The position numbers and the translations under genes were made by a program. The notes beneath the pieces were generated by a model. That model did not search any database, was not told the origin of the DNA, and saw nothing but the letters and a program-made list of their open reading frames with translations. Of a stretch of DNA of 64,000 nt, positions 269 through 55,849 are shown one piece after another (the first letter of the stretch is position 1; the number at the start of each line of letters is the position of its first letter). This stretch comes from Mobula hypostoma (Eukaryota), in assembly GCF_963921235.1 (NCBI RefSeq), contig NC_086097.1, positions 124,001 through 188,000 on the forward strand, in the 5' to 3' direction.

Positions 269-1777
269 CGGAACACCTTCCGACCATATGTCACCTCTTT
301 TAATGATTTGATTTCATTTTTACCAACAGAGCAAAGCTGCCCCCTCTACCTTCCTGTTTTCTGGTAAACATAGAAAACATAGAAACGTAGAAAATAGGTG
401 CAGGAGTAGGCCATTCGGCCCTTCAAGCCTCAACCGCCATTCAGTATGATCATGGCTGATCATCCAACTCAAACCCTGTACCAGCCTTCCCTCCATACCC
501 CCTGATCCCTTTAGCCACAAGGGCCATATCTAACTCCCTCTTAAATGTAGCCAATGAACTGGCCTCAACTGTTTCCTGTGGCAGAGAATTCCACAGATTC
601 ACCACTCTCTGTGTGAAGAAGTTTTTCCTAATCTCAGTCCTAAAAGGCATCCCCTTTATCCTCAAAATGTGACGCCTCGTTCTGGACTTCCCCAACATCG
701 GGAACAATCTTGCTGCATCTAGCCTGTCCGATCCCTTTAGGATTTTATATGTTTCAATCAGATCCCCCCTCAATCTTCTAAATTCCAACGAGTATAAGCC
801 TAGTTCATCCAGTCTTTCATCATATGAAAGTCCTGCCGTCCCAGGAATCAATCTGGTGAACCTTCTTTGTACTCCCTCTGAGTCTTTCCTCAGATTAGGG
901 GACCAAAACTGCATACAATACTCCAGGTGTGGTCTCACCAAGGCCATGTACAACTGCAGTAGTACCTCCCTGCTCCTGTACTCGAATCCTCTTGCTATAA
1001 ATGCCAGCATACCATTCGCCTTTTTCACCGCCTGCTGTACCTGCATGCCCACTTTCAATGACTGGTGTATAATGACACCCAGGTCTCGTTGCACCTCCCC
1101 TTTTCCTAATCGGCCACCATTCAGATGATAATCTGTTTTCCTGTTTTTGCCACCAAAGTGGATAACTTCACATTTATCCACATTAAATTGCATCTGCCAT
1201 GAATTTGCCCACTCACCTAATCTATCCAAGTCACCCTGCATCCTCTCAGCATCCTCCTCACAGCTAACAGTGCCGCCCAGCTTCGTGTCATCCGCAAACT
1301 TGGAGATGCAGCATTTAATTCCCTCATCCAAGTCATTAATATATATTGTAAAGAACTAGGGTCCTAGCAATGAGCCTTGCAGTACCCCACTAGTCACTGC
1401 CTGCCATTCTGAAAAGGTCCCGTTTATTCTCACTCTTTGCTTCCTGTCTGCCAACCAATTCTCTATCCACATCAATACCTTACCCCCAATACCGTGTGCT
1501 TTAAATTTGCACACTAATCTCCTGTGTGGGACCTTGTCAAAAGCCTTTTGAAAATCCAAATATACCACATCCACTGGTTCTCCCCTATCGACTCTACTAG
1601 TTACATCCTCAAAAAATTCTGAGGTTCGTCAGACATGATTTTCCTTTCACAAATCCATGCTGACTTTGTCCGATGATTTCACCGCTTTCCAAATGAGCTG
1701 ATATCACATCTTTGATAACTGACTCTAGCAGTTTCCCCACCACCGATGTTAGGCTAACCGGTCTATAATTCCCTGGT

Positions 1778-1940
1778 AAGCATAATTCTATGCTTCCTTC
1801 AGTTTGTCCTGACGAAGGGTCTCGGCCTGAAACGTCGACTGCGCCTCTTCCTATAGATGCTGCTTGGCCTGCTGCGTTCACCAGCAACTTTGATGTATGT
1901 TGCTTGAATTTCCAGCATCTGCAGAATTCCTGTTGTTTGC
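1778..1940 (+). mobile_element. Short non-coding Penelope-like-element derivative carrying a hammerhead motif
   Basis: 15-bp TSD CTATAATTCCCTGGT (1763-1777 and 1941-1955); sequence matches the 3' region of the GIY-YIG element at 48878-49623. Confidence 0.88.
1806..1840 (+). ncRNA. Minimal type I hammerhead ribozyme motif with intact core
   Basis: GTC-CTGACGA-A-GGGT(CTCG)GCCT-GAAAC-GTC^GAC: both conserved core boxes, a short helix II, a GUC cleavage triplet, and a palindromic ACGT in place of helix III. Confidence 0.75.
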
Positions 1941-2622
1941 CTATAATTCCCTGGTTTCTCTCTCCCTCCTTTTTTAAAAAGCGGGGTTACATTAGCCACC
2001 CTCTAATCCTCAGGAACTAGTCCAGAATCTAAAGAGTTTTGAAAAATTATCACTAATGCATCCACTATTTCTTGGGCCACTTCCTTAAGCACTCTGGGAT
2101 GCAGACCATCTGGCCCTGGGGATTTATCTGCCTTTAATCCCTTCAATTTACCTAACACCACTTCCCTACTAACATGTATTTCCCTCAGTTCCTCCATCTC
2201 ACTGGACCCTCTGTCCCCTACTATTTCCGGAAGATTACTTATGTCCTCCTTAGTGAAGACAGAACCAAAGTAATTATTCAATTGGTCTGCCATGTCCTTG
2301 CTCCCCATAATTAATTCACGACCTGTTTCTGTCTGTAGGGGACCTACATTTGCCTTAACCAATCTTTTTCTTTTCACATATCTATAAAGTCAGTTTTTAT
2401 GTTCCCTGCCAGTTTTCTCTCATAATCTTTTTTCCCCTTCCTAATTAAGCCCTTTGTCCTCCTCTGCTGAACTCTGAATTTCTCCTAGTCCTCAGGTGAG
2501 CCACTTTTTCTGGCTAATTTGTATGCTTCTTCTTTGGAATTGATACTATCCCTAATTTCCCTTGTCAACCATGGGTGCACTACCTTCCTTGATTTATTCT
2601 TTTGCCAAACTGGGATGCACAA

Positions 2623-3254: not shown

Positions 3255-4288
3255 TTTTAGATTTTTGGATCACTTGGATCTCTTCTGGGGAAGGTGGGAC
3301 CTGTACAGATTGGATGGGTTGCACCTGAACTCAAGGGGGAGCAATATCCTTGCAGGGAGGTTTGCTAGCATGGTTCGGGAGGGTTTAAACTAATTTGCAA
3401 ACAGGATGGGACCCGGAGAGATAGAGCAGTGGAAGAAGTGCATGGAGTAAAGCCAGATCTAACATATAAAGAGGCTTTGAGGAAAGAGAAGCAGAATAAA
3501 GGGTGTAAAGGTAGCAAGGTAGAAGAGCTAAAATGCATGTACTTCAATGCAAGAAGCATCAGGAACAAAGGTAATCAACTGAGAGCTTGGATACATAAAT
3601 GGAATTATCATGTAGTGGCCATTACAGAGACCTGGCAGGCACCAGGGCAGGAATGGATTCTCAATATTCCTGGATTTCAGTGCTTTAAAAGGGATAGAGA
3701 ATGCAGAAAAAGGGGAGGAAAAAGGGGAGGAGGGGTGGCATTACTGGTCAAGGATACTATTACAGCTACAGAAAGGGTGGGTAATGTAGCAGGATCCTCT
3801 TTGGAGTCAGTATGGGTGGAAGTCAGGAACAGGAAGGGAGCAGTTACTCTATTGGGAGTATTCTATAGGCTCCCTAGTAGCAGCAGAGATACCGAGCAGA
3901 TTGGGAGGCAGATTTTGGAAAGGTGCAAAAATAGCAGGGTTGTTATCATGGGTGACTTTAACTTCCCTCATATTGATTGGCACCTGATTAGTTCCAATGC
4001 TTTAGACAGGGCAGAGTTTGTTAAGTGTGTCCAGGACGGATTCCTGTCACAGTATGTTGACAGGCCGACCAGGGAGAATGCCATACTAGATCTAGTATTA
4101 GGTAACGTACCGGGTCAGGTCACAGATCGCTCAGTGGGTGAGCATCTGGGGGACAGTGACCACCACCTCCTGGCCTTTAGCATTATCATGGAAAAAGACA
4201 GAATCAGAGAGTATAGGAAAATTTTTTAATTGGGGAAGGGCAAATTATGAGGCTATAAGGGTAGAACTTGCGGGTGTGAATTGGGATG
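3255..4288 (+). mobile_element. CR1 fragment (subfamily B): end of ORF1 and ORF2 APE endonuclease
   Basis: ORF 3429-4229 with NARSI, TETW, GDFN, LDLV and SDH motifs; near-identical to the reverse complement of 18840-19860. Confidence 0.92.
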
Positions 4289-6712: not shown

Positions 6713-6925
6713 TAAGGGTCACTGGTGCTAGAACAGCATTACACTAACCATTCTATGGAGGTGCATGAACCTGGACTTGGATTTTGAGACTGCTTGGGCT
6801 GCAGCTCCAGTGGAAAAGAATTGGTAAAAAGTTTATTATTGTCACGTGTACCAAAATACAATGGGGGAAAAAAAAGTCTTAATGTGCCATCCAGACAGAT
6901 CATTCCATACAGAAGTACACTGAGG

Positions 6926-7010
6926 TGCTGGAGGAACTCAGCAGGTCAGGCAGAAAATTAATAAACAGTCAATGTTCTGAGCTGATGAAGGGTCTTAGCC
7001 CAAAACCCTT
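6926..7010. mobile_element. Decayed PLE 3' fragments in inverted arrangement, with a degenerate hammerhead core
   Basis: GCTGGAGGAACTCAGCAGGTCAGGCAG (PLE in minus orientation) followed by plus-strand CTGATGA-AGGGTCTTAGCCC-AAAAC. Confidence 0.6.
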
Positions 7011-7868: not shown

Positions 7869-9436
7869 ACCAGGCTTCCTAACACCAGGGGTTAGGAATG
7901 TGAGTAGCTTTCTGGCCAGAGCTGGAGTCCAGAGTGTGGGTTAGAAGTAGGATCTGGAGTGCTTCAGCATTTCAGCTTGTGTGTTTGATAAACTGAAACT
8001 CAGCAGGTTTCTCTTATTTTTTTCAACTACTGGATAACATGTTTTAAAAAAACTAAAAGTGTGTTGGGGGGGGGGAAATGTGTAACATTGAATAGTTTTG
8101 GAAAATCTGCTTGACCCAATGCCACCAAGGTCCTGAGGGTGCTGAGTTATCAGTTTTATTTTAATAAGCTTTGTGAAATGGCAAGTCATTACCAAGATTA
8201 ACCATTATAAAAATAAATATTCTTGTTAAATCAAAGATTTATAATAATTTAATAACAATTATCTATTATAGTACAGCACAGTACAGGCCCTTTGGCCGAC
8301 ATTGTTGTGCCAACCCTCAAACCCTGCCTCCCATATAACCCCCCACCTTAAATTCCTCCATATACCTGTCCGGTGGTCTCTTAAATTTCGCTAGCATATC
8401 TGCCTCCACCACTGACTCAGGCAGTGCAATCCACACAACAACCACTCTCTGAGTAAAACACTTCCTCTAATATCCCCCTTGAAATTCCCACCCCATACTT
8501 TAAAGCCATGTCCTCTTGTATTGAACAGAGGTGCCCTGGGGAAAAGGCGCTGGCTATCCAATCTATCTATTCCTCTTAATATCTTGTATACCTCTATCAT
8601 GTCTCCTCTCATCCTCCTTCTCTCCAAAGAGTAAAGCCCTAGCTCCCTTAATCTCTGAACATAATGCATACTCTCTAAACCAGGCAGCATCCTGGTAAGT
8701 CTTCTCTGTACCCTTTCCAATGCTTCCGCATCCTTTCTATAGTGAGGCGACCAGAACTGGACACAGTACTCCAAGTGTGGCCTAACCAGGGTTTTATAGA
8801 GCTACATCATTACATCGCGACTCTTAAACTCTATCCCTCGACTTATGAAAGCTAACACCCCATAAACTTTAACTACCCTATCTACCTGTGAGGCAACTTT
8901 CAGGGATCTATGGACATGTACCCCCAGATCCTTCTGCTCCTTCACACTATCAAGTATCCTGCCATTTACTCTGTACTCTGCCTTGGAGTTTGTCCTTCCA
9001 AAGTGTACCACCTCACACTTCTCCGGGTTGAACTCCATCTGCCACTTCTCAGCCCACTTCTGCATCCTATCAATGGCTCTCTACAATCTTCGACAATCCT
9101 CTACACTATCCACACCACCAACTTTTGTGTCGTCTGCAAACTCGCCAACCCACCCTTCTACCCCCACATCCAGGTCGTTAATAAAAATCACGAAAAGTAG
9201 CGCTCCCAGAACAGATCCTTGTGGGACACTACTACTCACAATCCTCCAATCTGAATGTACTCCCTCCACCACGACCCTCTGCCTTCTGCAGGCAAGCCAA
9301 TTCTGAATCCACCTGGCCAAACTTCTCTGGATCCCATGCCTTCTGACTTTCTGAATTAGCCTACCGTGTGGAACCTTGTCAAATGCCTTACTAAAATCCA
9401 TATAGATCACATCCACTGCACTACCCTCATCTATAT

Positions 9437-10448
9437 TCACAGCACGCTGGAGGAACTCAGCAGGTCAGGCAGCATCAGTGCAAACGATGAGTCGATGTTT
9501 CAGGCCGGAACCCTTCATCAGGACTGAAGAAAGAAGGAGGAGGTGGAAGGATTTGAAGAATGCTTGTAGGTTCAGTTGAAAAACCAGTAATCTGAGAGAC
9601 AAAGGGTTGGGGGAGGGGAAGCAGGGACATCATAGGCAGGAAAACAATGGGTAGTAGAAGAAGGAGGTGGAACCATGAGGGAGATGATAGGCAGCTGGGG
9701 GAGGGGGCAAAGTGAAATACGGATAGAGGAAGGGAGGAGGAGGGAGTTACCGGAAGTTGGAGAATTCTATGTTCATACCAAGGGGCTGGAGACTACCTAG
9801 ATGGTATATGAGGTGTTGCTCCTCCAACCTGAGTTTAGCCTCATCATGGCAGTAGAGAAGGCCATGTATGGACATATCTGAATGGGAAGCAGAGTTGAAG
9901 TGGGTGGCTACCGGGAGATCCTGTCTGTTGTGGAGGTGCTCGGCGAAGCGGTCCCCCAATCTGCGTCGGGTTTCACCGATGTAGAGGAGGCCGCACCGGG
10001 AGCACCGGATGCAATACATGACCCCAACAGACTCACAAGTGAAGTGTTGCCTCACCTGGAAGGACTGTTTGGGGTCCTGAATGGTGGCAAGAGAGGAGGT
10101 GTAGGGACAGGTGTAGCACTTACACTTACAGGACGTGCGGATAAGGGAGTTCGCGGAGGGACTGATCCCTGCGGAAAGCAGAGAGGGGTGGAGAGGGAAA
10201 GATGTGCTTAGTGCTGGGTTCCTGTTCAAGGTGGCGGAAGTTGCGGAAGATAATGTGCTGGATCCAGAGGCTGGTGGGGTGGTAGCTGAGGACAAGGGGA
10301 ACTCTGTCCTTGTGGTTGCGGGAGGATGGGGTGAGGGCTGAAGTGCGGGAAATGGAGGAATTGCGGGTGAGGGCATCATTGATGACAGTAGAAGGGAAAC
10401 CACGATCCTTAAAGAAAGAGGACATTTGAGATGTCCTGGAATGGAACG
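9437..10448 (-). mobile_element. Penelope-like retroelement 3' part (GIY-YIG endonuclease, Neptune-like; PLE subfamily 1)
   Basis: FTC...YCIRCSRCGLLYIGETRRRLGDRFAEH...GMNIEF; 12-bp TSD CCTCATCTATAT (9425-9436 and 10449-10460); pyrimidine-rich 3' UTR on the element strand, with a hammerhead motif. Confidence 0.92.
9490..9525 (-). ncRNA. Hammerhead motif variant (GAAAC-AUC)
   Basis: AGTC-CTGATGA-AGGGTTCCGGCCT-GAAAC-ATC-GACT on the minus strand. Confidence 0.6.
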
Positions 10449-11425
10449 CCTCATCTATATGCCTGGTCAGCTCCTCAAAGAACTCTATCAGGCTTGTTAG
10501 ACACGATCTGCCCTTCATAAAGCCATGCTGACTGTCCCTGATCAGACCATGATTCTCTAAATGCCCAGAGATTCTATCTCTAAGAATCTTTTCCAACAGC
10601 TTTCCCACCACAGACGTAAGGTTCACTGGTCTATAATTACCCGGACTATCACTACTACCTTTTTTGAACAAGGGGACAACATTCGCCTCCCTCCAATCCT
10701 CCAGTACCATTCCCATGGAAAACGAGGACATAGAGATCCTAGCCAGGGGCTCAGCAATCTCTTCCCTCGCCTCGCGGAGCAGCCTGGGGGATATTCCGTC
10801 AGGCCCCGGGGACTTATCTGCCCTAATGTATTTTAACAACTCCAACACCTCCTCTCCCTTAATATCAACATGCTCCAGAACATCAACCTCACTCATATTG
10901 TCCTCACCATCATCAAGTTCCCTCTCATTGGTGAATACCGAAGAGAAGTATTCATTGAGGACCTCGCTCACTTCCACAGCCTCCAGGCACATCTTCCCAC
11001 CTTTATCTCTAATCGGTCCTACCTTCACTCCCGTCATCCTTTTGTTCTTCACATAATTGAAGAATGCCTTGGGGTTTTCCTTTATCCTACTTGCCAAGGC
11101 CTTCTCATGCCCCCTTCTTGCTCTTCTCAGTCCCTTCTTAAGCTCCTTTCTTGCTTCCCTATATTCCTTAGTAGACCCATCTGATCCTTGCTTACTGAAC
11201 CTCATGTATGCTGCCTTCTTCCATCTGACTAGATTTTCCACCTCACTTGTCACCCATGGTTCCTTCACCCTACCATTCTTCATCTTCCTCACCGGGACAA
11301 ATTTATCGCTAACATCCTGCAAGACATCACTAAACATTGACCAGATGTCCATAGTACATTTCCCTGCAAAAACATCATCCCAATTCACACCCGTAAGTTC
11401 TAGCCTTATAGCCTCATAACAAGGT

Positions 11426-11748
11426 AATAAGAGGAATAGATAAGAGTGGATAGCCAGCGCCTCTTCCCCAGGGCACCTCTGCTCAATAGAAGGGGACATG
11501 GCTTTAAGGTAAGGGGTGGGAAGTTCAAGGGGGATTACTAGAAGAAGGTTTTTTACTCAGAGAGTGGTTGGTGAGTGGTATGCACTGCCTGAGGCAGTGG
11601 TGGGGGCAGATACACTCGTGAAGTTTAAGAAACTACTAGACAGGTATATGGAGGAATTTAAGGTTGGGGGTTATATGGGAGGCAGTGTTTGAGGGTCGGC
11701 ACAACATTGTGGGCTGAAGGGCCTGTAATGTGCTGTACTATTCTATGT
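11426..11748 (+). mobile_element. CR1 3' end (subfamily B)
   Basis: Inverted copy of 8262-8585. Confidence 0.88.
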
Positions 11749-16732: not shown

Positions 16733-19700
16733 AACATACAAGATAGAATAGTACAGCACAGTACAGGCCCGTTGGCCCACAATGTTGTGCCGACCCTCAA
16801 ACCCTGCCTCCCATATAAGCCCCCACCTTAAATTCCTCCATATACCTGTCTGGTAGTCTCTTAAACTTCACTAGTGTATCTGCCTCCACCACTGACTCAG
16901 GCAGTGCATTCAACGCAACAACCACTCTCTGAGTAAAAATCCTTCCTCTAATATCCCCCTTGAACTTCCCACCCCTTACCTTAAAGCCATGTCCCCTTCT
17001 ATTGAGCAGAGGTGCCCTGGGGAAGAGGCGCTGGCTATCCACTCTATCTATTCCTCTTATTACCTTGTACACCTCTATCATGTCTCCTCTCATCCTCCTT
17101 CTCTCCAAAGAGTAAAGCCCCAGCTCCCTTAATCTCCGATCATAATGCATACTCTCTAAACCAGGCAGTATCCTGGTAAATCTCCTCTATACCCTTTCCA
17201 ATGCTTCAACATCCTTCCTATAGTGAGGCGACGAGAAATGGACATAGTACTCCAAGTGTGGCCTAACCAGAGTTTCATAGAGCTGCACCATTATATCGCG
17301 ACTCTTAAACTCTATCCCTTGACTTATGAAAGCTAACACCCTATAAGCTTTCTTAACTACCCTATCCACCTGTGAGGCAACTTTCAGGGATCTGTGGACA
17401 TGTACCCCCAGATCCCTCTGCTCCTCCACACTACCAAGTATCCTGCCATTTACTTTGTACTCTGCCTTGGAGTTTGTCCTACCAAAGTGCACCACCTCAC
17501 ACTTCTCCAGGTTGAGCTCCATCTGCCACTTCTCAGCCCACTTCTGCATCCTATCAATGGCTTTCTGCAATCTTTGACAATCCTCTACACTATCTACAAC
17601 ACCACCCACCTTTGTGTCGTCTGCAAACTTGCCAACCCACCCTTCTACCCCCACATCCAGGTCGTTAATAAAAATCACGAAAAGTAGAGGTCCCAGAACA
17701 GACCCTTGTGCGACTCCACTAGTCACAATCCTCCAATCTGAATGTACTCCCTCCACCACGACCCTCTGCCTTCTGCAGGCAAGCCAATTCTGAATCCACC
17801 TGGCCAAACATCCCTGGATCCCATGCCTTCTGACTTTCTGAATAAGCCTACTGTGTGGAACCTTGTCAAATGCTTTACTAAAATCCATATAGATCACATC
17901 CACTGCACTACCCTCATCTATATGCCTGGTCACCTCCTCAAAGAACTCTATCAGGCTTGTTAGACACGATCTGCCTTTCACAAAGCCATGCTGACTGTCC
18001 CTGATCAGACCATGATTCTCTAAATGCCCATAGATCCTATCTCTAAGAATCTTTTCCAACAGCTTTCCCACCACAGACGTAAGGCTCACTGGTCTATAAT
18101 TACCCGGACTATCCCTACTACCTTTTTTGAACAAGGGGACAACATTCGCCTCCCTCCAATCCTCCGGTACCATTCCCATGGACAACAAGGACATAAAGAT
18201 CCTAGCCAGAGGCTCAGCAATCTCTTCCCTTGCCTCGTGGAGCAGCCTGGGGAATATTCCATCAGGCCCAGGGGACTTAACCGTCCTAATGTATTTTAAC
18301 AACTCCAACACCTCCTCTCCCTTAATATCAACATGCTCCAGAACATCAACCTGACTCATATTATCCTCACCATCATCAAGTTCCCTCTCATTGGTGAATA
18401 CTGAAGAGAAGTATTCATTGAGGACCTCGCTCACTTCCACAGCCTCCAGGCACATCTTCCCATCTTTACCTCTAATCGGTCCTACCTTCACTCCTGTCAT
18501 CCTTTTGTTCTTCCCATAATTGAAGAATGCCTTGGGGTTTTCCTTTACCCTACTTGCCAAGGTCTTCTCATGCCCCCTTCTTGCTCTTCTCAGCCCCTTC
18601 TTAAGCTCCTTTCTTGCTTCCCTATATTCCTCAATAGACCCATCTGATCCCTGCTTCCTAAACCTCATGTATGCTGCCTTCTTCCACCTGACTAGATTTT
18701 CCACCTCACTTGTCACCCATGGTTCCTTCACCCTACCATTCTTTATCTTCCTCACCGGGACAAATTTATCCCTATCATCCTGCAAGAGATCTCTAAACAT
18801 CGACCACATGTCCATAGTACATTTCGCTGCAAAAACATCATCCCAATTCATACCCGCAAGTTCTAGCCTTATAGCGTCATCATTTGCCCTTCCCCAATTA
18901 AAAATTTTCCTGTCCTCTCTGATTCTATCCTTTTCCATGATAATGCCAAAGGCCAGGGAGCAGTGGTCACTGTCCCCCAGATGCTTACCCACTGAGAGAT
19001 CTGTGACCTGACCCGGTTCATTACCTAGTACTAGATCTAGTATAGCATTCCCTCTAGCCGGCCTGTCCACATACTGTGACAGGAATCCGTCCTGGACACA
19101 CTGAACAAATTCTGCCCAATCTAAACCCTTGGAACTAATCAGGTGCCAATCAATATTAGGGAACTTAAAGTCACCCATGATAACAACCCTGTTATTTTTG
19201 CACCTTTCCAAAATCTGCCTCCAAATCTGCTCCTCTGTATCTCTGCTGCTACCAGGGGGCCTATAGAATACCCCCAATAGAGTAACTGCTCCCTTCCTGT
19301 TCCTGACTTCCACCCATACTGACTCAAAAGAGGATCCTGCTACATTATCCACCCTTTCTGTAGCTGTAATAGTATCCCTGACCAGTAATGCCACCCCTTC
19401 CCCCCTTTTTCCGCCCTCCCTATCCCTTTTAAAACACTGAAATCCAGGAATATTGAGAATCCATTCCTGCCCTGGTGCCAGCCAAGTCTCTGTAATGGTC
19501 ACTACATCATAATTCCATGTATGTATCCAAGCTCTCAGTTCATCACCTTTGTTCCTGATGCTTCTTGCATTGAGGTACACATATTTCAGCCCTTCTACCT
19601 TACTGTCTTTACACCGTTTATTCTGCTTCTCTTTCCTCAAAGTCTCTCTATATGTTAGATCTGGCTTTATTCCATGCACTTCTTTCACTGCTCTATCGCT

Positions 19701-20032
19701 CTGGGTCCCATCCCCTTTGCAAATTAGTTTAAACCCTCCCGAACCATGCCAGCGAACCTACCTGCAAGGATATTGTTCCCCCTTGAGTTCAGGTGCAATC
19801 CATCCAATCTGTACAGGTCCCACCTTCCCCAGAAGAGATCCCAATGATCCAAAAATCTAAAACCCTGCTCCCTGCACCAACTCCTCAGCCACGTATTCAA
19901 CTGCCATCTCCTCTAATTCTTACCATCACTGTCACGCAGCACTTGCAGCAATCCTGAGAACGCCACCCTTGAGGTCCTGTTCTTCAGCCTTCTGCCTAGT
20001 TCCCGAAACTCACACTTCAGGACCTCATCCCT
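16733..20032 (-). mobile_element. CR1 (subfamily B): ORF1 3' end plus essentially complete ORF2 (16797-19688) with one premature stop
   Basis: 833-aa EN+RT ORF ending at TAG 17187-17189; the reading frame continues to 16797. Confidence 0.96.
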
Positions 20033-24121: not shown

Positions 24122-24514
24122 AACACAAAATAATCTGCAGATGCTGGGATCAAAGCAACACTCACAACACGCTGGAGGAACTCAACAGGGGGGGCAGCAT
24201 CCGTGGAAATGATGAGTCGACGTTTCGGGCCGGAACCCTTCGTCCGGACTGAACAGGGAAGGGGCAGAGGCCCTATAAAGAAGGTGGGGGGAGGGTGAGA
24301 AGGAAAAAGGCTGGTAGGTTCAGTTGAAAAACCAGTAATGTGAAAGACAAAGGGGTGGGGGAGGGGAAGCAGGGAGGTGATAGGCAGGAAAACAATGGGT
24401 AGTAGAAGGAGGCGGAACCATGAGGGAGGTGATAGGCAGCTGGGGGAGGGGGCAGAGTGAAATAGGGATAGAGGAAGGGAAGGGGAGGGAATTACCGGAA
24501 GTTGGAGAATTCTA
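24122..24514 (-). mobile_element. Penelope-like 3' end (PLE subfamily 1): last codons EFSNFR* and 3' UTR
   Basis: Colinear with 9437-9768; hammerhead variant at 24215-24250 (CGGACGA...GAAAC-GTC). Confidence 0.88.
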
Positions 24515-46300: not shown

Positions 46301-46390
46301 CACGAAAATTAATGAGGCTAGGGTGTCACCTGATAAAGGGAAAACCCATTTTGAAAAGATAAGTATGGTGCCGACCAGATGGGAGAACTC

Positions 46391-46482
46391 AAACAACAGG
46401 AATTCTGCAGATGCTGGAAATTCAAGCAACACACATCAAAGTTGCTGGTGAACGCAGCAGGCCAGGCAGCATCTCTAGGAAG
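46391..46482 (-). mobile_element. 92-bp PLE-derived insert lacking the hammerhead
   Basis: 14-bp TSD AGATGGGAGAACTC (46377-46390 and 46483-46496). Confidence 0.88.
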
Positions 46483-47378
46483 AGATGGGAGAACTCTATT
46501 GTTTTGGCCAGCATTGCTGATAAGGTCTCTCCTTTAACCCCCGAACAGAGCGAGCCGCTGAGAAAGCTAATTAACCGGCACACACACGTATGTCCGGATG
46601 TCCTGGGGCGATGCAAGAGCCGGGACATGGTGTTGTTGTCACATCAGGTCAGCCTAGTAAGCAACGCCCCTATAGGATGATTAATTCAGTGACAAAAGGG
46701 CTAAGGAACACAGAAGCGTATATTGACGATTTAGTTGTCTGGAGTGACACGTGGGAGGAGCACATTGTGGCAGTAGAGGAACTGTTTAAAAAGCTGTTTG
46801 AAGCCAGCCTGACAGTGAACCTCGCAAAAAGTGAATTCGACCACGCGAAGGTCACTTATATGGGATTTGTGGTAGGACAGGGGCAGCTGGCTCCAATGCA
46901 GGCTAAGGTGCGGGCTATCTCTGAAGTCCCCACCCCGACAGACAAGAGAGCCCTGAGAAGGTTCTTGGGGATGATGGGGTACTATCGGAAGTTTTGCAAA
47001 AACTTTGCAGATATTACCCTCCCTCTTACTAAGCTCTTGCCAAAGAATGCTAAGTTTGTGTGGGACGACCTTTGTTATATTCGTCCGGGACGGAAACCAC
47101 TGAGAATTTACACTGATCACAACCAATTAGCGTTTTTGGCCACTATGAAGGATAAAAACAAAAGGATGCTCAGTTGGAGCCTGGTCTTAAAGGAACTTGA
47201 TATTCAAATAAAACATATAAAAGGAACTGAAAAGGTGATTGCTGACTGTCAAGGTGTTGACAACTTAAAGTTCTCTGTATTAGCTGAATAGCTGATGACC
47301 CTGTATATTAGTGTGTATCTAATAATGTATTCATGCCCATAATTTTTACCCCAGTAAAAATCCTTTGAAGGATAGGGG

Positions 47379-48203: not shown

Positions 48204-48877
48204 GACTAGATAAAATAAATTCGTTCAATACGAAAAAATTGCGAAATTGAAACCATATTCGTATTGTATATTTAATTATTGGATTAATTATTTGTTTATT
48301 CAGTTTGGTTAATGCAAAGGGGAGCAAAGCTCCTAAAATAGAAGCTAATGAGAACCACTGCACGGACTCACCCTCCAGGTTCACCCATCGTGGACAATGA
48401 ATTTCATCCTAATCTTGCGTCCAAAACATTAAATATCGGATATTAATTGCCCAATAATAAAATATAAAATTCGGCAATGCTAAACCACTGTCCTTTTTTG
48501 ATTTCTGTAGATATTTCTTACTCAATCTAGGATTTTTATTCTGCCATATATAAGAAGAAATTTTAGAATCAGTAATACCAAAATAGGATTTAGAGATAAA
48601 AATTGGTACCATTTGAAATAAATACAGAAATTTAGGTAAAACAGCCATTTTAATAACATTAATTAGACCAATCAATGATAAGGACAGTGGGGACCATTTA
48701 GTAAACAATTGTTTAACATGATCAATTAAGGGTAGAAAGTTAACTTTAAATAGATCTTTATATTTTTTAGTAATTTTGACACCCAAATAAGTGAAATAAT
48801 CAGTAATTAATTCAAATGGTAATTGTCTATAAATTGGAACTTGTATATTTAATGGAAAAAGCTCACTCTTATTAAGA

Positions 48878-49623
48878 AACACACATCAAAGTTGCTGGTG
48901 AACGCAGTAGGCCAGGCAGCATCTGTAGGAAGAGGTGCAGTCGATGTTTCAGGCCGAGACCCTTCGTCAGGACTAACTGAAGGAAGAGTGAGTAAGGGAT
49001 TTGAAAGTTGGAGGGGGAGGGGGAGATCCAAAATGATAGGAGAAGACAGGAGGGGGAGGGATAGAGCCAAGAGCTGGACAGGTGATAGGCAAAAGGGGAT
49101 ACGAGAGGATCATGGGACAGGAGGTCCGGGAAGAAAGACAAGGCGGGGGGGGAACCCAGAGGATGGGCAAGAGGTATATTCAGAGGGACAGAGGGAGAAA
49201 AAGGAGAGTGAGAGAAAGAATGTGTGCATAAAAATAAGTAACAGATGGGGTACGAGGGGGAGGTGGGGCACTAGCGGAAGTTAGAGAAGTCGATGTTCAT
49301 GCCATCAGGTTGGAGGCTACCCAGACGGAATATAAGGTGTTGTTCCTCCAACCTGAGTGTGGCTTCATCTTTACAGTAGAGGAGGCCGTGGATAGACATG
49401 TCAGAATGGGAATGGGATGTGGAATTAAAATGTGTGGCCACTGGGAGATCCTGCCTTCTCTGGCGGACAGAGCGTAGATGTTCAGCAAAGCGGTCTCCCA
49501 GTCTGCGTCGGGTCTCGCCAATATATAAAAGGCCACATCGGGAGCACCGGACGCAGTATATCACCCCAGTCGACTCACAGGTGAAGTGTTGCCTCACCTG
49601 GAAGGACTGTTTGGGGCCCTGAA
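48878..49623 (-). mobile_element. Penelope-like 3' part (GIY-YIG; PLE subfamily 2) nested in L1 ORF2
   Basis: ORF 49271-49597 GIY-YIG; 9-bp TSD TTATTAAGA (48869-48877 and 49624-49632); removing it restores L1 GYKLNLNKSE; hammerhead variant at 48939-48974. Confidence 0.92.
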
Positions 49624-52600
49624 TTATTAAGATTTAGTTTATAACCAGAAAAACTACTGAAATGAGCTAGTAGTGATAAAACTGCCAGGATGGATTTCTC
49701 TGGGTTACAGCTATATAGTAACAAGTCATCTGCATACAATGCTACCTTATGCGTCTCCTTCCCACGAGTAAATCCAAATATATTGGGTGAATCACGAAAG
49801 GCAATTGCCAAGGGTTCCAAAGCTATATCAAATAACAAAGGATTTAACGGACAACCCTGTTCAGTACCTCTGAAAAGCCTAAAAAAGGGGGATCTCTGAT
49901 TATTGGTAACTACGGAAGCCAAAGGTGAATGATGTATCAATTCAATCCAAGAAATAAATTTTGGGCTAAAGTTGAATCTCTCAAGCACATGAAATAAATA
50001 TTTCCATTCAGCTCTGTCAAACGCCTTCTCGGCGTCGAGCGAAATAACACATTCCGGAACTTTAGATGAAGGAGTATATACAATATTCATTAATCTCCTA
50101 ACATTGAAATATGAAAAGCGATTTTTAATAAATCCTGTCTGATCATCAGAAATAATTTGTGGCAGTACCTTTTCCAATCTATTTGCTATTATTTTAGAAA
50201 AAACTTTGAAATCTACATTCAACAAAGACATAGGTCTATATGATGCACAATCAGTAAGATCTTTATCTTTTTTAGGAATTAAAGAAATGGATGCTTCACA
50301 ATAGGATTGTGGTAATTTACCTACAAGTAAGGCGGTAATTTACCTACAAGTAAGGCATCCTTAAAAAATTTACATAGCCATGGTGAAAGTAAATTTGAAA
50401 AAGATTTATAAAAGTCTACTGTAAATCCATCCAAACCTTAATATCATTTTCCGTAATGGATGCATCTAGTTCTAAGCGTTCATTAAGTGGTAATTTCAGA
50501 ATATTCAATTTCCTTAAAAATTCATGCATTATGGTAGACTCTTCAGGAAATTCCGATTGATATAGAGAGGTATAAAATTCTTGAAAAGATTTATTAATTT
50601 CGTCATGATCAACTGTCAAGGTACCATCCCGTTTAAAAACTTTACTAATCAAACGTTTAGCCGAAGCAGCTTTCAGTTGGTCTGCCAATAATTTTCTCGA
50701 TTTATCACCATGTATATAAAATTGACTCTTAGTTTTAAGTAATTGATTTTCAATCGGGGAAGTTAATAACAAATTATGTTGCATCTGAAGTTCAACCCTC
50801 TTTTTATAGAGTTCTAGATTAGGAGCAACAGAATATTTTTAATCTATTTCTTTAATCTTAACAACCAATGTACATATTTCATTATTAATTTGTTTTTTCA
50901 ATCCAGCAGAATATGAAATAACTTGCCCACGAATATATACTTTAAAAGTATCCCACAATATTCCACTGGAAATTTCATCCGTAGAGTTAGGTGAAAAGAA
51001 AAAATCAATCCGTTTTTTAATAAAATTGGCAAAATTTGAATCCTGAAGCAAAGTGGAATTGAACCTCCATTGTCTAGCACTAGAACTTACGTCAGTGAAT
51101 TAATTGATAGTTTCAGAGGTGCATGATCAGAAATAGTAATTGCATCATATTCACATGCAATAACAGATGAAGCTAATCAATAATCAATAAAAAAAAATCA
51201 ATTCTCGAATAACGATGATATACATGAGAGAAAAAAGAAAACTCTTTCTCATTAAGATATAAAAGCTTCCAAACATCTAAGATTCTGGAATCAACTAAAA
51301 AGGCGTTAATAAAAATAGTGGATTTGTTTAGAGATATTTGATTAGGGGCAGACCTATCCATCAAAGGGTTCAAGCAACAATTAAAGTCTCCACCCATTAC
51401 CAACTTATATTCATTTAAATTAGGAAAAGATGCAAATAAATGCTTAAAAAATTCAGGATAGTCAGTACTTGGTGCATAAATATTAACCAAAATGACTTTT
51501 TGATTATAAAATAAGCCAGTAATTAACAAAAATCTACCACTCGGGTCTGAAATTGTTTCATAATGAACAAATGAAATTGAGGAGTCTATAAAAATAGAGA
51601 TTCCTTTTACCTTAGATTGTGAATTAGAATGAAACTTTTGTTCCTCCCAAAACCTAAAAAACTGTTGATTATCCACCCTCCTCACACGAGTCTCCTGAGC
51701 AAAGATAATCTGAGCATTCAGTCTATGAAGGACTTTAAAAATCTTCTTCCGTTTAATCGGATGATTCAAACCATTTACATTCCATGAAACAAAATTAATA
51801 ACATTATCCATTTTACTACCGTAAGCCAAATGGTATGCAAAGGGTTAACCTTACTGCACGGGAAACCCATGACTCAGGAAGAGGGAAAAGTTTAAAGAGG
51901 AACCGGAATCTACGACAATTCAGACATACTTGTAGTTTCAGAACATCCCAATTGGAAAATACTAAGTTAAAAGAAATACCATCCCCTACCCACCAAGCCC
52001 GAAAAAAAAACTGGCCAAAGCCAGCCAGTATGCTAACTAATCTCAAATACATTACCTCCAACTCTCATGAAGACATAACTCCAAATGGAAGAAATGTAAT
52101 AAACCACCCACAGACAAAACATTATGAGAGAAATACCAAGAAAAGGACAAAACAAATATTGAAAAAAAAGAACCCAGTCATTGCGAGACATTTTGAAAGG
52201 CGAAATCTTGAAAAATGAAACAAAATACAATCTTATTAATTCAAAAAAAACTGTCGCTAAGTCAAAATGTTAAACGAAGTTAAAAATACTTACATAAAAT
52301 AATAAAAGAGAAAAGAAATCTTAACATAAAAGCATAATAAACATCTATACTCCAAAAAAAATACAGGTATAATCCAACCAAGAATGAGATTTCCCGAACT
52401 TTAAAGGCAAATCTACACATTAGTTTTAAACTAATAGACAACCACATTCAAACATGAAAAAGCAATAAATTTATTAAACACTTGAAAATTAGTCAAGCTC
52501 TTCAAGAAATTGACATGCCTCCGTCACTGATTTAAACCGTTTATGTGATTTATCTGGCAAAACAACCCTAAAACACGCAGGATATAACAACGCAAGGTAT

Positions 52601-53096
52601 AATTTCTTTTGGTATAATACCGACATCACCGACCTAAAAAGAGACCTCTCTTGTAACAACTCTGGACTAAAATTTTCCGCCAAACAAAATCTGAGATCCC
52701 CATACTCAATTATTCCTTTCCGACGTGCAACTCGAATTAACTGCTCCTTAGTATGCACATAGTGGAATCATAGAACAACAGCTCTGGGTTTTAAAGCTTT
52801 CAGAGGTTTAACCCTTAATGAGCGATGAGCGCGGTCGAGTATAGGGGGGTTAGAAAACACTTCAGTACTGAATACCTCAATTAAAAATTGAGCAAAAAAC
52901 TTAGTGGGATCGCCACTTTCAACATCCTCACGAAGTCCTAAAATCCGTAGATTCTGTCTGCGACTGCGATTTTCCAGGTCAATAATCTTGGCTTTATATT
53001 GTTCCAGCATTTGAGTGGTCGAGATTACTTTCATTTCCAACGAGCTCAATCTGCAGTCTCTTTGTCTGCCATTTTCATCAAGATCCGAAATTAGTC

Positions 53097-53255
53097 TTCC
53101 TTCAGTTAGTCCTGACCAAGGGTCTCGGCCTGAAACGTCGACTGCGCCTCTTCCTATAGATGCTGCTTGGCCTGCTGCGTCCACCAGCAACTTTGATGTA
53201 TGTAACTTTGATGTATGTTGCTTGAATTTCCAGCATCTGCAGAATTCCTGTTGTT
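53097..53255 (+). mobile_element. Short PLE-derived insert in L1 ORF1 with a hammerhead variant (CTGACCA) at 53108-53143
   Basis: 13-bp TSD TCCGAAATTAGTC (53084-53096 and 53256-53268); internal 15-bp tandem duplication. Confidence 0.9.
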
Positions 53256-54994
53256 TCCGAAATTAGTCGTTGCTTTTCATTCTCACGTTTAATTGCTCCA
53301 AGTTGATCTTCAATATTATTTAATTTTATCTCGAGATTAGAAAATCTTTTATCAAATTTATCAAGTTTGTCATCCAAAAGCTTGGATATAACTTCCAAAG
53401 TCAGTTGTGCCTGTTGAGGCTGTTTAAACTGTTTAGGGTCGCCTCCTTCTCCATTTCCATTGTCGGCTTCCGTGCTCTCGGTTAGTGCCTTTTTCCCTCT
53501 GGTTGTTATTTCCAAGAATTAAAAGTCAAAATTCAAGCATACAAAAATATTGTAAACATTTCACTGTGAATACTAAACAGGTGGGAAATAAATGAAAAAA
53601 AGAACGGAGCAAAGTCAAGTGCGATTTACTCCATCTGGTGCTTCAAGAGTGTCCAGATTTTTTTTAAAGTCGCTACAAGATCATTTGTCTTTGCTGGTTT
53701 TGTAACAAAGGATCAAACACACCTTAAACATCACACAGGTCGCTTATCTTGGCTTAGGCCCTCAGCGGTTTTGGTTTGTTTTCAAGTAACCACTACATTT
53801 TGTCAACAAAAAAAGTTACACCAAATAAACACCAGTGTACAGCAAAGGACTGCCTTGGACACATTGGCAAAATTAAAATCGCGACACCATGAACAACACG
53901 TCAGAAATAAGAGCTGCTTGCAGTAGGATCATCTGCCTCCTTTTGTTAATTCATGCTCTATGTTTGTATGGTCATTTTTGAATGGTCAGTGCGGTCCATC
54001 CATTAGGACTGTACCTCAATTGTGTGATGTTCGCTTCAGGGTTCATTGCTTTATTGTACTGAAGTGCTGAAATATTCCATTTGCCAACGCTTGAATTAAA
54101 AGCTGTTTGTTCAGTCTGGTTTAAGCGTTGTGAAAGTACCAACTGTTTGTTTGTTAACTACGTTAATTGAGTTACATTTTGCCGGAACTGCAAGTGAACA
54201 AACAGAAAGTAATACGACTGTATCAAAGCATGGAATAGGTGGCAACAACCCTGTAGTTGGGGCTTGCAAAAGAGAAATTAAAACCGAAGCTAAGGCTAAT
54301 CTAATTGAAAGTCTTCAAAAGTACGAAACAAATGTGAACAAAATTAAAGGTTTAATAACATCAATAAATGACCATAAGAAAATGCCTTACATGCAATCTC
54401 ATCTTGAGGGCTTGACTAATCTCTGTGAAGTGTTGCTAAGCAACATCACATGCTAATTCATTACTTTCCCAAGGCTGAACAAGGAAAACAACCAACATTT
54501 TTCAAATATTGATCACGAATGCATTGCATTCATAGAGGCTATGAACCAATCGTTGACCCTGACATGTTATATTGAAGGTCATATTGATGCAACAAGTGAA
54601 TGTGTGTCTCACCTTCCAACTCACGATGTTTCTCAAACTCCAAAGCATGTTTTGACTATCCATTTGGCAGATGACCCACAAGATGATGTGAAACTGAATG
54701 ACAGTGTATCAAATGTCAGCACTTGAAGCTCTGTTGCAGGAAGAAATCTTCTGCATCTACTACCTCCTCTACACACATTAAAACAGAGGCTGATTTAGCT
54801 TCATTAATGGCACGTCAATGATTATTGAGGACAAACATGCGCTGGAAGAGCAAAAGGTACAGCTACAGAAAAGGAAGAAACAGGTTAAGTTGAAGGACAA
54901 GCATGCAATGGAACAGCAAGAGGAACACCTATGAAAAAAGGAAGGATTAGCTTAAGTTGGAGGAAAATATTGCCACACAAATGGCTAAAGTTAA

Positions 54995-55082
54995 GCAACA
55001 CACATCAAGGTTGCCGGTGAATGCAGCAGGCCAGGCAGCATCTCTAGGAAGAGGTACAGTCGACATTTCGGGCCGAAACCCT
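54995..55082 (-). mobile_element. Short PLE-derived insert with a partial hammerhead
   Basis: TTAA duplicated (54991-54994 and 55083-55086); removing it restores gag MAKVNVL. Confidence 0.8.
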
Positions 55083-55849
55083 TTAATGTGCTTTGGGCTT
55101 CAAGTGTCATGACTGCTAAAAGTGCTCCAGCAGGACAGTCCTATGGTGTGAATTCTTATATTGAAAAATCACAAAGAAAAACCAATACACTTAATATCAA
55201 TGTTGATTCATTTGTTCCTCGTGTGTTTGAGATACATGAACAAAACCCCCATGAAGTAGTTCATGGTGCTTACTCTCAGCCTGCACTAGTAAGGCACTCT
55301 GACCCTATGTCATATCCCACAGCTCATGCCGATATTCACTTACAGCATGGAAACACACTTGTTTTAGATGATAGAGGTCAAAACAATACTACTGATATTA
55401 TGAGGAAGCAAAATTAACTAATAACCTTATTGGTACAACAGCAACGCATTTCATCATTGCCTAAAAGAGAAATTCAAATCTTCCATGGACATCCATTTCA
55501 GTATCATGCATTCATGAGGGGTTTTGAAAACAGTGGATAGCTAGAGTGACTGCCTCTATCTACTTGAACAGTACACTAAAGGTTGCCCTAGAGAACGTCA
55601 GAAGTTTCCAGGATGTCGACCCTAAGGGAGAATGTCTAAAAGCTAAACCTTCATGACAGGAACACTTTGGTAATGAACAGAAAATTACATCAACCTATAA
55701 GCAAAAGGCTCTTTCTTGGGTACCTATTAAAGCTGAAGACATGAAAATTCTTCAAGACTACAGTCTTTTTCTTAAAGGCTATAGCAATGCCATGATAGAA
55801 ATCCAGTACGTGTGTGTGTGCTGGACATGCCTGCTAATATGTCAATTGT

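What the first reader, a model, noticed from the sequence alone, without database searches (positions are those of the whole stretch)
1806..1840. Minimal hammerhead ribozyme motif in Penelope-like element 3' regions (seven copies or remnants in 64 kb)
Seen in sequence: AGTC-CTGA(C/T)GA-A-GGGT(N4)GCC(C/T)-GAAAC-GTC^GACT recurs at 1806-1840(+), 9490-9525(-), 24215-24250(-), 48939-48974(-) and 53108-53143(+), with remnants at 55058-55083(-) and 6982-7006(+). Core boxes, helix I and helix II are kept across two PLE subfamilies whose flanks and helix II loop differ. Established knowledge: Penelope-like elements carry minimal type I hammerheads whose palindromic helix III (here ACGT) needs dimerisation. 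Inference: these are self-cleaving RNAs of the PLEs. Only the 1806 copy has an unmutated core.
Basis: partly seen in the sequence, partly recalled or inferred. Interest (0 to 1): 0.75.

Follow-up and report, generated by a model that had tools for sequence, protein, structure and literature searches.

The report
Penelope retroelement minimal hammerhead motifs
The repeated 35-base motif is the small "minimal hammerhead" self-cutting RNA motif carried near the tail end of Penelope-like jumping genes, a kind described in 2014, present here in tens of thousands of mostly dead copies.

Summary
Five copies of AGTC-CTGAYGA-A-GGGT-N4-GCCY-GAAACGTC-GACT lie at the stated coordinates (5 matches at up to 1 mismatch; 0 expected from 100 shuffles). 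Both "remnants" are real.

The motif meets every element of the published RNAmotif descriptor for minimal hammerheads of metazoan Penelope-like elements (PLEs; Cervera & de la Peña 2014). It sits 220-300 nt after a GIY-YIG endonuclease ORF and about 105 nt before the element's 3' end. PLE hallmarks are present: RT plus GIY-YIG, head-to-head inverted pairs, and a ~38-bp tail on one arm only.

The 3.48-Gb genome holds 58,308 exact cores, against 0 for the reversed pattern. Genomic copies decay neutrally by CpG transitions: only 3 of 27 sampled copies that span the motif still pass the descriptor.

Cleavage is not shown:
- Rfam finds no hammerhead.
- There is no significant covariation.
- The predicted dimer fold is not the favoured one.
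- Insertion 5' ends are barely enriched at the cut site (1,128 vs 984).

Verdict: a correct catch and a new member of a known kind. This scan has noted the same kind before in other genomes, sharks among them.

The parts
1806..1840 (+). Minimal hammerhead copy with all core letters intact. C17 is at 1836, so the predicted cut lies between 1836 and 1837. Helix I is weakened by T at 1805.
1778..1940 (+). 163-bp 5'-truncated PLE 3' fragment (hammerhead, conserved tail block and ~38-bp tail). It is inserted into a LINE RT gene that reads on the minus strand.
   Evidence: Read. The RVT_1 hit on 1609-1986(-) is.
1763..1777 (.). Target-site duplication CTATAATTCCCTGGT, left copy. The right copy is at 1941-1955.
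   Evidence: read
9490..9525 (-). Hammerhead copy of subfamily B (loop UUCC). G16.2 is A, which breaks the ACGU palindrome.
9747..11556 (-). PLE coding remnant. RVT_1 lies in 10126-11556 and GIY-YIG in 9747-10454, with one frameshift between them. A CKCKCYTC motif precedes the GIY-YIG domain. The stop codon is about 222 nt upstream of the hammerhead.
24215..24250 (-). Hammerhead copy of subfamily B with U4 changed to G. It sits in a 5'-truncated fragment that spans at least 24162-24514.
48939..48974 (-). Hammerhead copy of subfamily A (loop CUCG) with G16.2 changed to A.
48874..49624 (-). 5'-truncated PLE fragment of about 750 bp: the GIY-YIG coding end (49271-49633), the 3' UTR and the hammerhead. 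It is 78% identical over 350 nt to the endonuclease region of the 9.7-kb element.
53108..53143 (+). Hammerhead copy of subfamily A with G8 changed to C.
53097..53256 (+). 160-bp 5'-truncated insertion flanked by the 12-bp duplication CCGAAATTAGTC (53085-53096 and 53257-53268). It carries an internal 15-nt duplication.
   Evidence: read
54987..55083 (-). Copy truncated inside the hammerhead. It begins after the CUGAYGA box.
6982..7006 (+). 25-nt decayed hammerhead 5' part. It is the short arm of a head-to-head inverted pair whose other arm lies at about 6900-6976(-).
46388..46485 (-). Tail-only fragment of subfamily A with no hammerhead.

Best explanation
**What it is.** The motif is the minimal type I hammerhead (min-HHR) of Penelope-like retroelements. 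In this family it sits in the 3' untranslated region, 220-300 nt after the stop codon of the RT/GIY-YIG ORF and about 105 nt before the element's 3' end.

**Anatomy, read from the sequence**
- Helix I: (U)AGUC pairs with GACU(G).
- First core box: CUGAYGA.
- One unpaired A.
- Helix II: GGGU pairs with GCCY, closed by a 4-nt loop.
- Second core box: GAAA.
- In place of helix III there is only the palindrome A15.1-C-G-U16.1, followed by C17 and the cut site.

**How it would work (inferred from published work on this class).** A single copy cannot close helix III. Two copies, either on a tandem or read-through transcript or on two RNAs, pair their ACGU palindromes and swap helix I strands. That builds a double hammerhead that cuts after GUC. 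The reaction is probably slow and helped by the element's protein. Its most likely role is trimming PLE transcripts.

**Why there are so many copies (shown).** PLE insertions are mostly 5'-truncated, so the 3' end is the part copied most often. The copies in this window are dead fragments that decay by CpG transitions.
For: **Motif**
- The sequence is at the stated places: 5 sites at up to 1 mismatch against 0.00 expected.
- The genome holds 29,150 + 29,158 exact cores against 0 + 0 for the reversed pattern.
- 47,875 of these also keep AGTC.

**Fit to the descriptor.** The published descriptor reads: stem I 3-7 bp, 'cuganga' plus an optional extra nucleotide, stem II 3-7 bp with G-U allowed, loop 3-10, 'gaaannuh'. 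The published consensus reads CUGANGAH...GAAAN-palindrome-NU-H. All of these are met. My own version of the descriptor finds 3 hits in 264 kb and 0 in each of 20 shuffles.

**PLE context**
- RVT_1 and GIY-YIG lie upstream of the 9490 copy.
- GIY-YIG (24.9 bits, cut-off 22.6) lies upstream of the 48939 copy.
- In the first 100 listed sites there are 11 divergent head-to-head pairs within 1.3 kb and no convergent ones.
- In 3 of 3 inverted pairs examined (L002, L016, L019), the ~38-bp tail is on one arm only. Both features are described for PLEs (PMC8557442, passages).

**Retention across subfamilies.** At least three subfamilies have different upstream sequences and different spacers, yet share the same inferred block. 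In assembled contigs of four public runs, sequence diverges from the locus just outside helix I. The break lies at L009:1533 in all four runs (65, 38, 10 and 7 records) and at 1497/1498 in two runs (12 and 7 records).

**Literature**
- PMC4209133 (text parts 1-2 and supplement file 2 part 2 read) reports min-HHRs in PLE terminal repeats of fishes, coelacanth and frog, with weak activity as dimers.
- PMC11167929 (passages) reports protein-assisted cleavage in an Anolis PLE, lost in the C3G and G8C mutants.
Against: - No cleavage assay exists for this sequence.
- Rfam gives no hammerhead hit, even at E up to 10, on the whole window or on a 91-nt slice.
- Single copies fold no better than shuffles (z +0.10 to +0.88).
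- The nearest-neighbour energy of the double-hammerhead pairing is -12.9 kcal/mol. Two monomer hairpins give -24.4, and the best predicted duplex gives -32.7.
- There is no significant covariation. 91.6% of cells are paired against 90.6 ± 0.6 in shuffles, and 51 of 500 shuffles reach the observed value.
- 46,601 of the 58,308 exact copies have U at 11.1, giving a G·U wobble instead of the usual G10.1-C11.1 pair.
- Insertion 5' ends are hardly enriched at the cut site: 1,128 against 984 at the neighbouring position.
- In the Anolis element, ribozyme mutants inserted normally in vitro, and no RNA-seq reads ended at the cut site (PMC11167929).
- PLE clades without hammerheads proliferate well (PMC8557442).
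Confidence: 0.85

Rival explanations
1. The conserved 36-nt block works mainly as a structured RNA element rather than as a ribozyme, for example a hairpin recognised by the element's RT or by a host protein. On this reading the hammerhead-like core is vestigial or a passenger, and cutting is negligible in vivo.
For: - The predicted best fold of the single copy is an extended hairpin in which GACG (G5-G8) pairs with CGUC (15.2-17). It is the MFE for 2 of the 5 window copies and for the L009 copy (-12.2 kcal/mol).
- The dominant lineage carries G·U at 10.1-11.1.
- There is little 5'-end footprint at the cut site.
- Published work found the ribozyme dispensable for insertion in vitro (PMC11167929, passages).
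- Craig et al. suggest that hammerheads may simply parasitise PLEs (PMC8557442, passages).
Against: - All invariant hammerhead core letters are retained in every subfamily's inferred founder, including unpaired ones (C3, U4, A9, G12-A14) that a plain hairpin does not need.
- The test for coupling of the hairpin pair N7/16.2 was negative. The odds ratio of T7 with A16.2 is 2.36; the control ratio of T7 with A1.1 is 2.13. Copy-age differences explain both.
- The count on 25 copies was not significant either.
- Related PLE hammerheads do cleave in vitro (PMC4209133, PMC11167929).
Confidence: 0.1
2. The very abundant short copies (about 100-250 bp) are not truncated PLEs. They would instead form a separate non-autonomous, retrozyme-like or SINE-like family derived from the PLE terminal region and mobilised in trans.
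For: - Two window copies with clean target-site duplications are only 160-163 bp long and start within one base of each other, at (C)TTCCTTCAG about 14 nt upstream of the CUGA box.
- A 2026 preprint argues that animal non-LTR retrozymes derive from PLE terminal repeats (10.64898/2026.07.22.740005; abstract and Results part 1 read).
Against: - 5' ends in the sample are spread over many positions, and longer copies run on without a break into the GIY-YIG coding sequence.
- Head-to-tail arrays are rare. Only 1 of the first 100 listed sites has a same-strand neighbour within 1 kb.
- No circular RNA evidence could be sought.
Confidence: 0.05

Closest known systems
Minimal hammerheads (min-HHR) in the terminal repeats of metazoan Penelope-like elements (Cervera & de la Peña 2014, PMC4209133)
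   Same: - The same architecture: a short helix I, the CUGANGA box, one unpaired nucleotide (A) before helix II, GAAA, the C-G palindrome at 15.2/16.2 with no loop 3, and U-H.
- The same location next to RT/GIY-YIG ORFs.
- Mostly solo copies on truncated elements, sometimes as opposite-strand pairs.
- G·U at 10.1-11.1 also occurs in published rows, for example cichlid, Xenopus(1) and Latimeria(1).
   Different: - Helix II has only 4 bp, two of them wobbles in the main lineage. Many published families have 5-8 bp.
- No cartilaginous fish or look-alike sequence is in the published alignment I read.
- The copy number is far higher: 58,308 exact cores here, against about 4,000 in coelacanth and about 9,000 in Xenopus in that paper.
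Hammerhead of the Anolis carolinensis Poseidon element PAc (PMC11167929)
   Same: A PLE hammerhead in the pseudo-LTR. It has a tail signature at insertion ends, and its cleavage needs help.
   Different: In PAc the ORF starts inside the ribozyme. Here the motif lies 220-300 nt after the stop codon, and its relation to the next ORF start in a tandem was not examined. The linker motif CKCKCYTC ahead of GIY-YIG suggests a Neptune-like clade rather than Poseidon; this is my inference only.
Non-LTR retrozymes of animals (PMC7229834, listing only; preprint 10.64898/2026.07.22.740005)
   Same: Type I hammerheads with a weak, palindromic helix III, linked to PLE terminal regions.
   Different: Retrozymes are head-to-tail tandem repeats that give circular RNAs. 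Here copies are dispersed, solo or head-to-head, and are continuous with PLE coding sequence.
Rfam hammerhead families (type I, II, III, HH9, HH10)
   Same: The same catalytic core boxes and cut-site rule.
   Different: No match at any threshold tried. My inference is that helix III is missing and helix I is too short for those models.

Membership tests
min-HHR of metazoan PLEs (published RNAmotif descriptor) | Stem I of 3-7 bp flanking the motif | tested here: met
   AGUC pairs with GACU (4 bp, plus U·G) in the family. The 1806 copy keeps 3 bp. 47,875 genomic copies keep AGTC.
min-HHR of metazoan PLEs (published RNAmotif descriptor) | Box CUGANGA plus an optional extra nucleotide before stem II | tested here: met
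   CUGACGA followed by A. The published consensus is CUGANGAH.
min-HHR of metazoan PLEs (published RNAmotif descriptor) | Stem II of 3-7 bp (G-U allowed) with a loop of 3-10 nt | tested here: met
   GGGU pairs with GCCY around a 4-nt loop (CUCG or UUCC).
min-HHR of metazoan PLEs (published RNAmotif descriptor) | Box GAAANNUH with a palindromic 15.2/16.2 pair and no loop 3 | tested here: met
   GAAACGUC; A-C-G-U is a palindrome.
min-HHR of metazoan PLEs | G10.1-C11.1 closing pair (called highly conserved in the paper, but not part of the descriptor) | tested here: inconclusive
   C at 11.1 in 11,707 of 58,308 exact copies and U (a wobble) in 46,601. The 1806 copy has U. Published rows also include G·U.
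min-HHR of metazoan PLEs | Self-cleavage after H17, as a dimer | not testable with these tools
   Only fold predictions are available, and they do not favour the active pairing.
Penelope-like elements (EN+) | Single ORF with RT followed by a C-terminal GIY-YIG endonuclease | tested here: met
   RVT_1 in 10126-11556(-) and GIY-YIG in 9747-10454(-). GIY-YIG in 49271-49633(-). Both ORFs are broken or truncated.
Penelope-like elements (EN+) | Inverted 5'-truncated copy adjacent at the 5' end (head-to-head structures) | tested here: met
   11 divergent pairs within 1.3 kb and 0 convergent among the first 100 listed sites. Junctions were seen in L001, L002/L003, L016, L019 and L028.
Penelope-like elements (EN+) | [quoted passage not shown] | tested here: met
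   A ~38-bp extension is present on one arm and absent on the other in 3 of 3 inverted pairs examined: L002, L016:7749/7747 and L019:3132/3131.
Penelope-like elements (EN+) | Pseudo-LTRs from partial tandem copies, so that the ORF is flanked by two hammerheads | not tested
   No tandem full-length pair lies in the window. nhmmer found no second copy upstream of the 9.7-11.6 kb element.
Rfam hammerhead families | Covariance-model score at or above the gathering threshold | tested here: not met
   No hammerhead match at gathering score, nor at E up to 10.
Animal non-LTR retrozymes | Head-to-tail tandem repeats, each unit with a hammerhead | tested here: not met
   Window copies are more than 1.9 kb apart. 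Only 1 of the first 100 genomic sites has a same-strand neighbour within 1 kb.

The most novel reading that the evidence does not exclude
This may be among the most prolific hammerhead-bearing retroelement lineages in a vertebrate genome, and a recently active one. It has at least 58,308 exact cores and 111,827 copies when CpG decay is allowed for. Each CpG strand-site has decayed in only about 7-10% of otherwise intact copies.

The burst happened in a sublineage whose ribozyme carries a weakened G10.1·U11.1 pair next to the active site. If the weakening is causal, an attenuated ribozyme would favour PLE proliferation, because cutting would otherwise separate the ORF from the conserved 3' block that the RT presumably needs. 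That would turn the long-open question of what PLE hammerheads are for into a testable trade-off. The 10^5 neutrally decaying copies would serve as a natural mutation series.
Probability: 0.12. Interest if true: 0.55.

Novelty: new member of a known kind. Interest (0 to 1): 0.27.

Why it matters
The finding confirms that a sequence-only reader can pick out a ribozyme class that the Rfam models miss. It also adds a very large, young family to the known min-HHR/PLE association.

The family's size, and the clean separation into a hammerhead block and a second conserved tail block, make it a good system for asking whether PLE hammerheads are needed for retrotransposition or merely ride along. By itself the finding is an ordinary example of a class described in 2014.

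Tried and rejected
- **Rfam.** Searched at gathering score, at E up to 10 on the whole window, and on a 91-nt slice. No hammerhead hit.
- **First pattern.** It had one N too many and found nothing. Corrected.
- **Loose generic hammerhead pattern.** Not above chance: 12 matches against 10.1 expected.
- **Covariation.** Tested on 25 of the 27 sampled copies that span the block. I dropped two with large internal deletions (L011:8433-8455, L017:1327-1357). Not significant for the hammerhead helices or for the alternative hairpin stem.
- **Hairpin coupling test (N7 with 16.2).** Odds ratio 2.36 against 2.13 for the control. No specific coupling.
- **Footprint of cleavage in insertion 5' ends.** 1,128 against 984, a small excess only.
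- **RNA evidence.** No RNA holder is listed. All 22 runs are kept as contigs and their kind is a guess. Laying four of them gave no places where molecules begin or end. This says nothing about expression or cleavage.
- **More genome sampling.** Five were obtained instead. Loci for a 5'-end histogram could not be cut out, so that histogram was not made.
- **Lünse et al. 2017.** This paper on PLE hammerheads acting as dimers is not held. I know it only through the text and reference list of PMC6765202.
- **Supplements.** File 1 of PMC4209133 was not searchable.
- **Earlier scan notes.** Nothing on this genome or on this sequence.

Full report
**1. The observation**

Positions 1806-1840(+) read GTCCTGACGAAGGGTCTCGGCCTGAAACGTCGACT. 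The 31-nt pattern CTGAYGAAGGGTNNNGGCCYGAAACGTCGAC, searched at up to one mismatch, finds five sites in the window. They are 1809(+), 9491(-), 24216(-), 48940(-) and 53112(+). A hundred dinucleotide-preserving shuffles gave none.

Only the 1806 copy is free of changes in conserved positions. The others carry:
- U4 changed to G (24216),
- G8 changed to C (53112),
- G16.2 changed to A (9491 and 48940).

The 1806 copy has T at 1805 where the family has A, so its helix I is cut from 4-5 pairs to 3.

Both remnants are real but need a different reading:
- The remnant at 55058-55083(-) is the 5' edge of a copy truncated inside the motif.
- The remnant at 6982-7006(+) matches the CpG-decayed form exactly. 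By my reading, it is the short arm of a head-to-head pair whose other arm is a tail fragment at about 6900-6976(-).

A further tail-only fragment lies at 46388-46485(-).

**2. What the copies belong to**

Aligning the copies shows that they share about 105 nt downstream of the motif. Longer copies also share several hundred nucleotides upstream.

Two copies lie directly downstream of PLE coding sequence:
- Upstream of the 9490 copy are an RVT_1 match (10126-11556, minus strand) and a GIY-YIG match (9747-10454).
- Upstream of the 48939 copy, the ORF 49271-49633(-) matches GIY-YIG at 24.9 bits against a cut-off of 22.6. This stretch is 78% identical over 350 nt to the endonuclease region of the first element.

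Both ORFs end in N-I-(E/D)-F-S-N-F-R-stop. The hammerhead therefore starts 222 and 297 nt after the stop codon. RT followed by GIY-YIG is the coding signature of endonuclease-bearing Penelope-like elements (PMC4209133; PMC8557442 passages). A CKCKCYTC motif ahead of GIY-YIG resembles the CX2-5CxxC linker that PMC8557442 attributes to the Neptune and Nematis clades. That clade assignment is my inference only.

Two window copies are short, clean insertions:
- 1778-1940 is flanked by the 15-bp duplication CTATAATTCCCTGGT and sits inside a LINE RT gene on the other strand.
- 53097-53256 is flanked by the 12-bp duplication CCGAAATTAGTC.

**3. The genome at large**

The window is part of a 3.48-Gb assembly.

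| Pattern | Copies |
|---|---|
| Exact core (reversed-pattern control: 0) | 58,308 |
| Exact core that also keeps AGTC | 47,875 |
| Core with CpG transitions allowed | 111,827 |
| Main sublineage 35-mer (loop CUCG, U11.1, its own spacer) | 45,884 |

I also drew a sample: twenty 10-kb stretches at round coordinates of two chromosomes, plus the window, 264 kb in all. A profile of the 3' region finds 52 fragments in it. Forty-five of them lie in 13 of the 20 random stretches, which points to a total of the order of 10^5 to 10^6 fragments.

Other PLE hallmarks are present:
- Among the first 100 listed sites there are 11 divergent (minus then plus) pairs within 1.3 kb and no convergent ones.
- In 3 of 3 inverted pairs examined, a ~38-bp terminal extension is present on one arm only.

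Both features are described for PLEs (PMC8557442 passages).

**4. Is it a hammerhead?**

Rfam says nothing, at gathering scores or at E up to 10. The published minimal-hammerhead descriptor for PLEs, which I read in the paper's supplement, asks for:
- a stem I of 3-7 bp,
- 'cuganga' plus an optional nucleotide,
- a stem II of 3-7 bp with G-U allowed,
- a loop of 3-10 nt,
- 'gaaannuh'.

Its consensus is CUGANGAH...GAAAN-palindrome-NU-H. The motif here meets each item:
- AGUC pairs with GACU.
- CUGACGA is followed by A.
- GGGU pairs with GCCY around a 4-nt loop.
- GAAACGUC holds the ACGU palindrome.

My own version of the descriptor finds 3 hits in the 264 kb and none in 20 shuffles. Membership in the min-HHR class therefore rests on a full match to the descriptor and on context, not on covariation. 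The stems hardly vary, and the pair counts do not differ from shuffles.

**5. Selection**

Individual insertions decay neutrally. Of the 27 sampled copies that span the block, only 3 still pass the descriptor, and most changes are CG to TG or CA.

| Site, among otherwise intact genomic copies | Effect of the change | Share changed |
|---|---|---|
| N7 (C to T) | harmless | 9.6% |
| 16.2 (G to A) | breaks the palindrome | 8.1% |
| 1.1 (G to A) | weakens helix I | 7.0% |

What does speak for constraint on source elements is the comparison between subfamilies:
- At least three subfamilies have unrelated upstream sequence and different spacers after GACUG, yet share the same inferred block.
- Contigs of four public runs diverge from the locus just outside helix I. 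The break lies at L009:1533 in all four runs and at 1497/1498 in two.

A second block in the tail (roughly GATGCTGCC...CCAGCA) is as well kept as the hammerhead. I take it to be the part the reverse transcriptase needs; that is inference.

**6. Does it cut?**

This is not shown, and several results counsel caution.
- Single copies fold no better than shuffles.
- Their best predicted fold is an extended hairpin in which core letters G5-G8 pair with 15.2-17.
- The double-hammerhead pairing scores -12.9 kcal/mol, against -24.4 for two hairpins and -32.7 for the best duplex.
- Four fifths of the exact copies have a G·U wobble at 10.1-11.1. Published PLE hammerheads include such cases.

If cleaved 3' fragments were common templates, insertions should often start at G1.1. 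To test this I counted copies with a purine before GACUG (1,128) and copies with a pyrimidine before ACUG (984). By strand symmetry of the CpG, these two counts share the same substitution background. The small excess amounts to well under 1% of copies.

This agrees with the Anolis study. There, ribozyme mutants inserted normally in vitro, cleavage needed the element's protein, and no RNA-seq reads ended at the cut site (PMC11167929 passages). I also tested whether the alternative hairpin is under selection, through coupling of N7 with 16.2. The odds ratio of 2.36 is matched by a control ratio of 2.13, so copy age explains it.

**7. Mechanism I commit to**

Shown:
- The motif and its class.
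- Its place in PLE 3' regions.
- Its abundance through 5'-truncated and head-to-head insertions.
- Its neutral decay after insertion.

Inferred from the literature on this class (PMC4209133; PMC6765202 passages; PMC11167929 passages):
- Two copies pair through ACGU and swap helix I strands.
- They cut after GUC slowly, with protein help.
- The reaction serves to process PLE transcripts.

I put about 0.85 on identity and class, and roughly even odds on meaningful cleavage in vivo for this family.

**8. Known or new**

The kind has been known since 2014. The alignment I read lists lamprey, teleosts, coelacanth, frog, turtle and snake among chordates, but no cartilaginous fish and no look-alike of this sequence.

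A search for Penelope, Chondrichthyes and hammerhead ribozyme together returned three papers. None of them describes this family, as far as their listings and the preprint's Results show. Earlier notes of this scan report the same kind in other genomes, including sharks. I did not check those notes.

I file this as a new member of a known kind. It is notable only for its copy number, its youth, and the success of the wobble-bearing sublineage.

Noticed in passing
L009:1545-1630; window 1853-1940 and equivalents: A second block downstream of the hammerhead (about GATGCTGCC...CCAGCA) is as conserved across PLE subfamilies as the hammerhead itself (0.9-1.0 per column). The 15-nt spacer between the two blocks varies. 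It is possibly the RT recognition or initiation region.
   Followed up: partly
genome-wide: The largest burst carries U at position 11.1, a CpG transition of C11.1-G12. That applies to 46,601 of 58,308 exact cores. So the most successful lineage has a G·U wobble next to the catalytic core.
   Followed up: partly
window 1809-1836 and all copies: Core letters G5-A6-C7-G8 are complementary to C15.2-G16.2-U16.1-C17. A single copy can therefore fold into one long hairpin that hides the active site. A test for selection on this pairing was negative.
   Followed up: yes
L002, L016:7641-7842, L019:3008-3234; window 6900-7006: Head-to-head inverted pairs are joined at varying points inside or near the hammerhead. 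The ~38-bp terminal tail is present on one arm only.
   Followed up: partly
window 17187-19757 (-): An open 856-aa frame with endonuclease/exonuclease/phosphatase and RVT_1 domains: an apparently intact LINE ORF2. Several further broken LINE copies lie at 450-1355(-), 3369-4229(+), 36712-37671(+), 49575-50339(-), 51173-51844(-) and 56274-59154(-).
   Followed up: no
window 46575-47291 (+): RVT_1 plus RT_RNaseH domains: a fragment of an LTR-type retroelement.
   Followed up: no
window 53190-53219: A 15-nt internal tandem duplication (AACTTTGATGTATGT twice) in the tail of the 53108 copy.
   Followed up: no
window 9081-9464 (-): The 9490 PLE copy lacks the last ~40 nt of the tail and abuts a LINE RT fragment (RVT_1; alignment). 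The order of the two insertions was not worked out.
   Followed up: no
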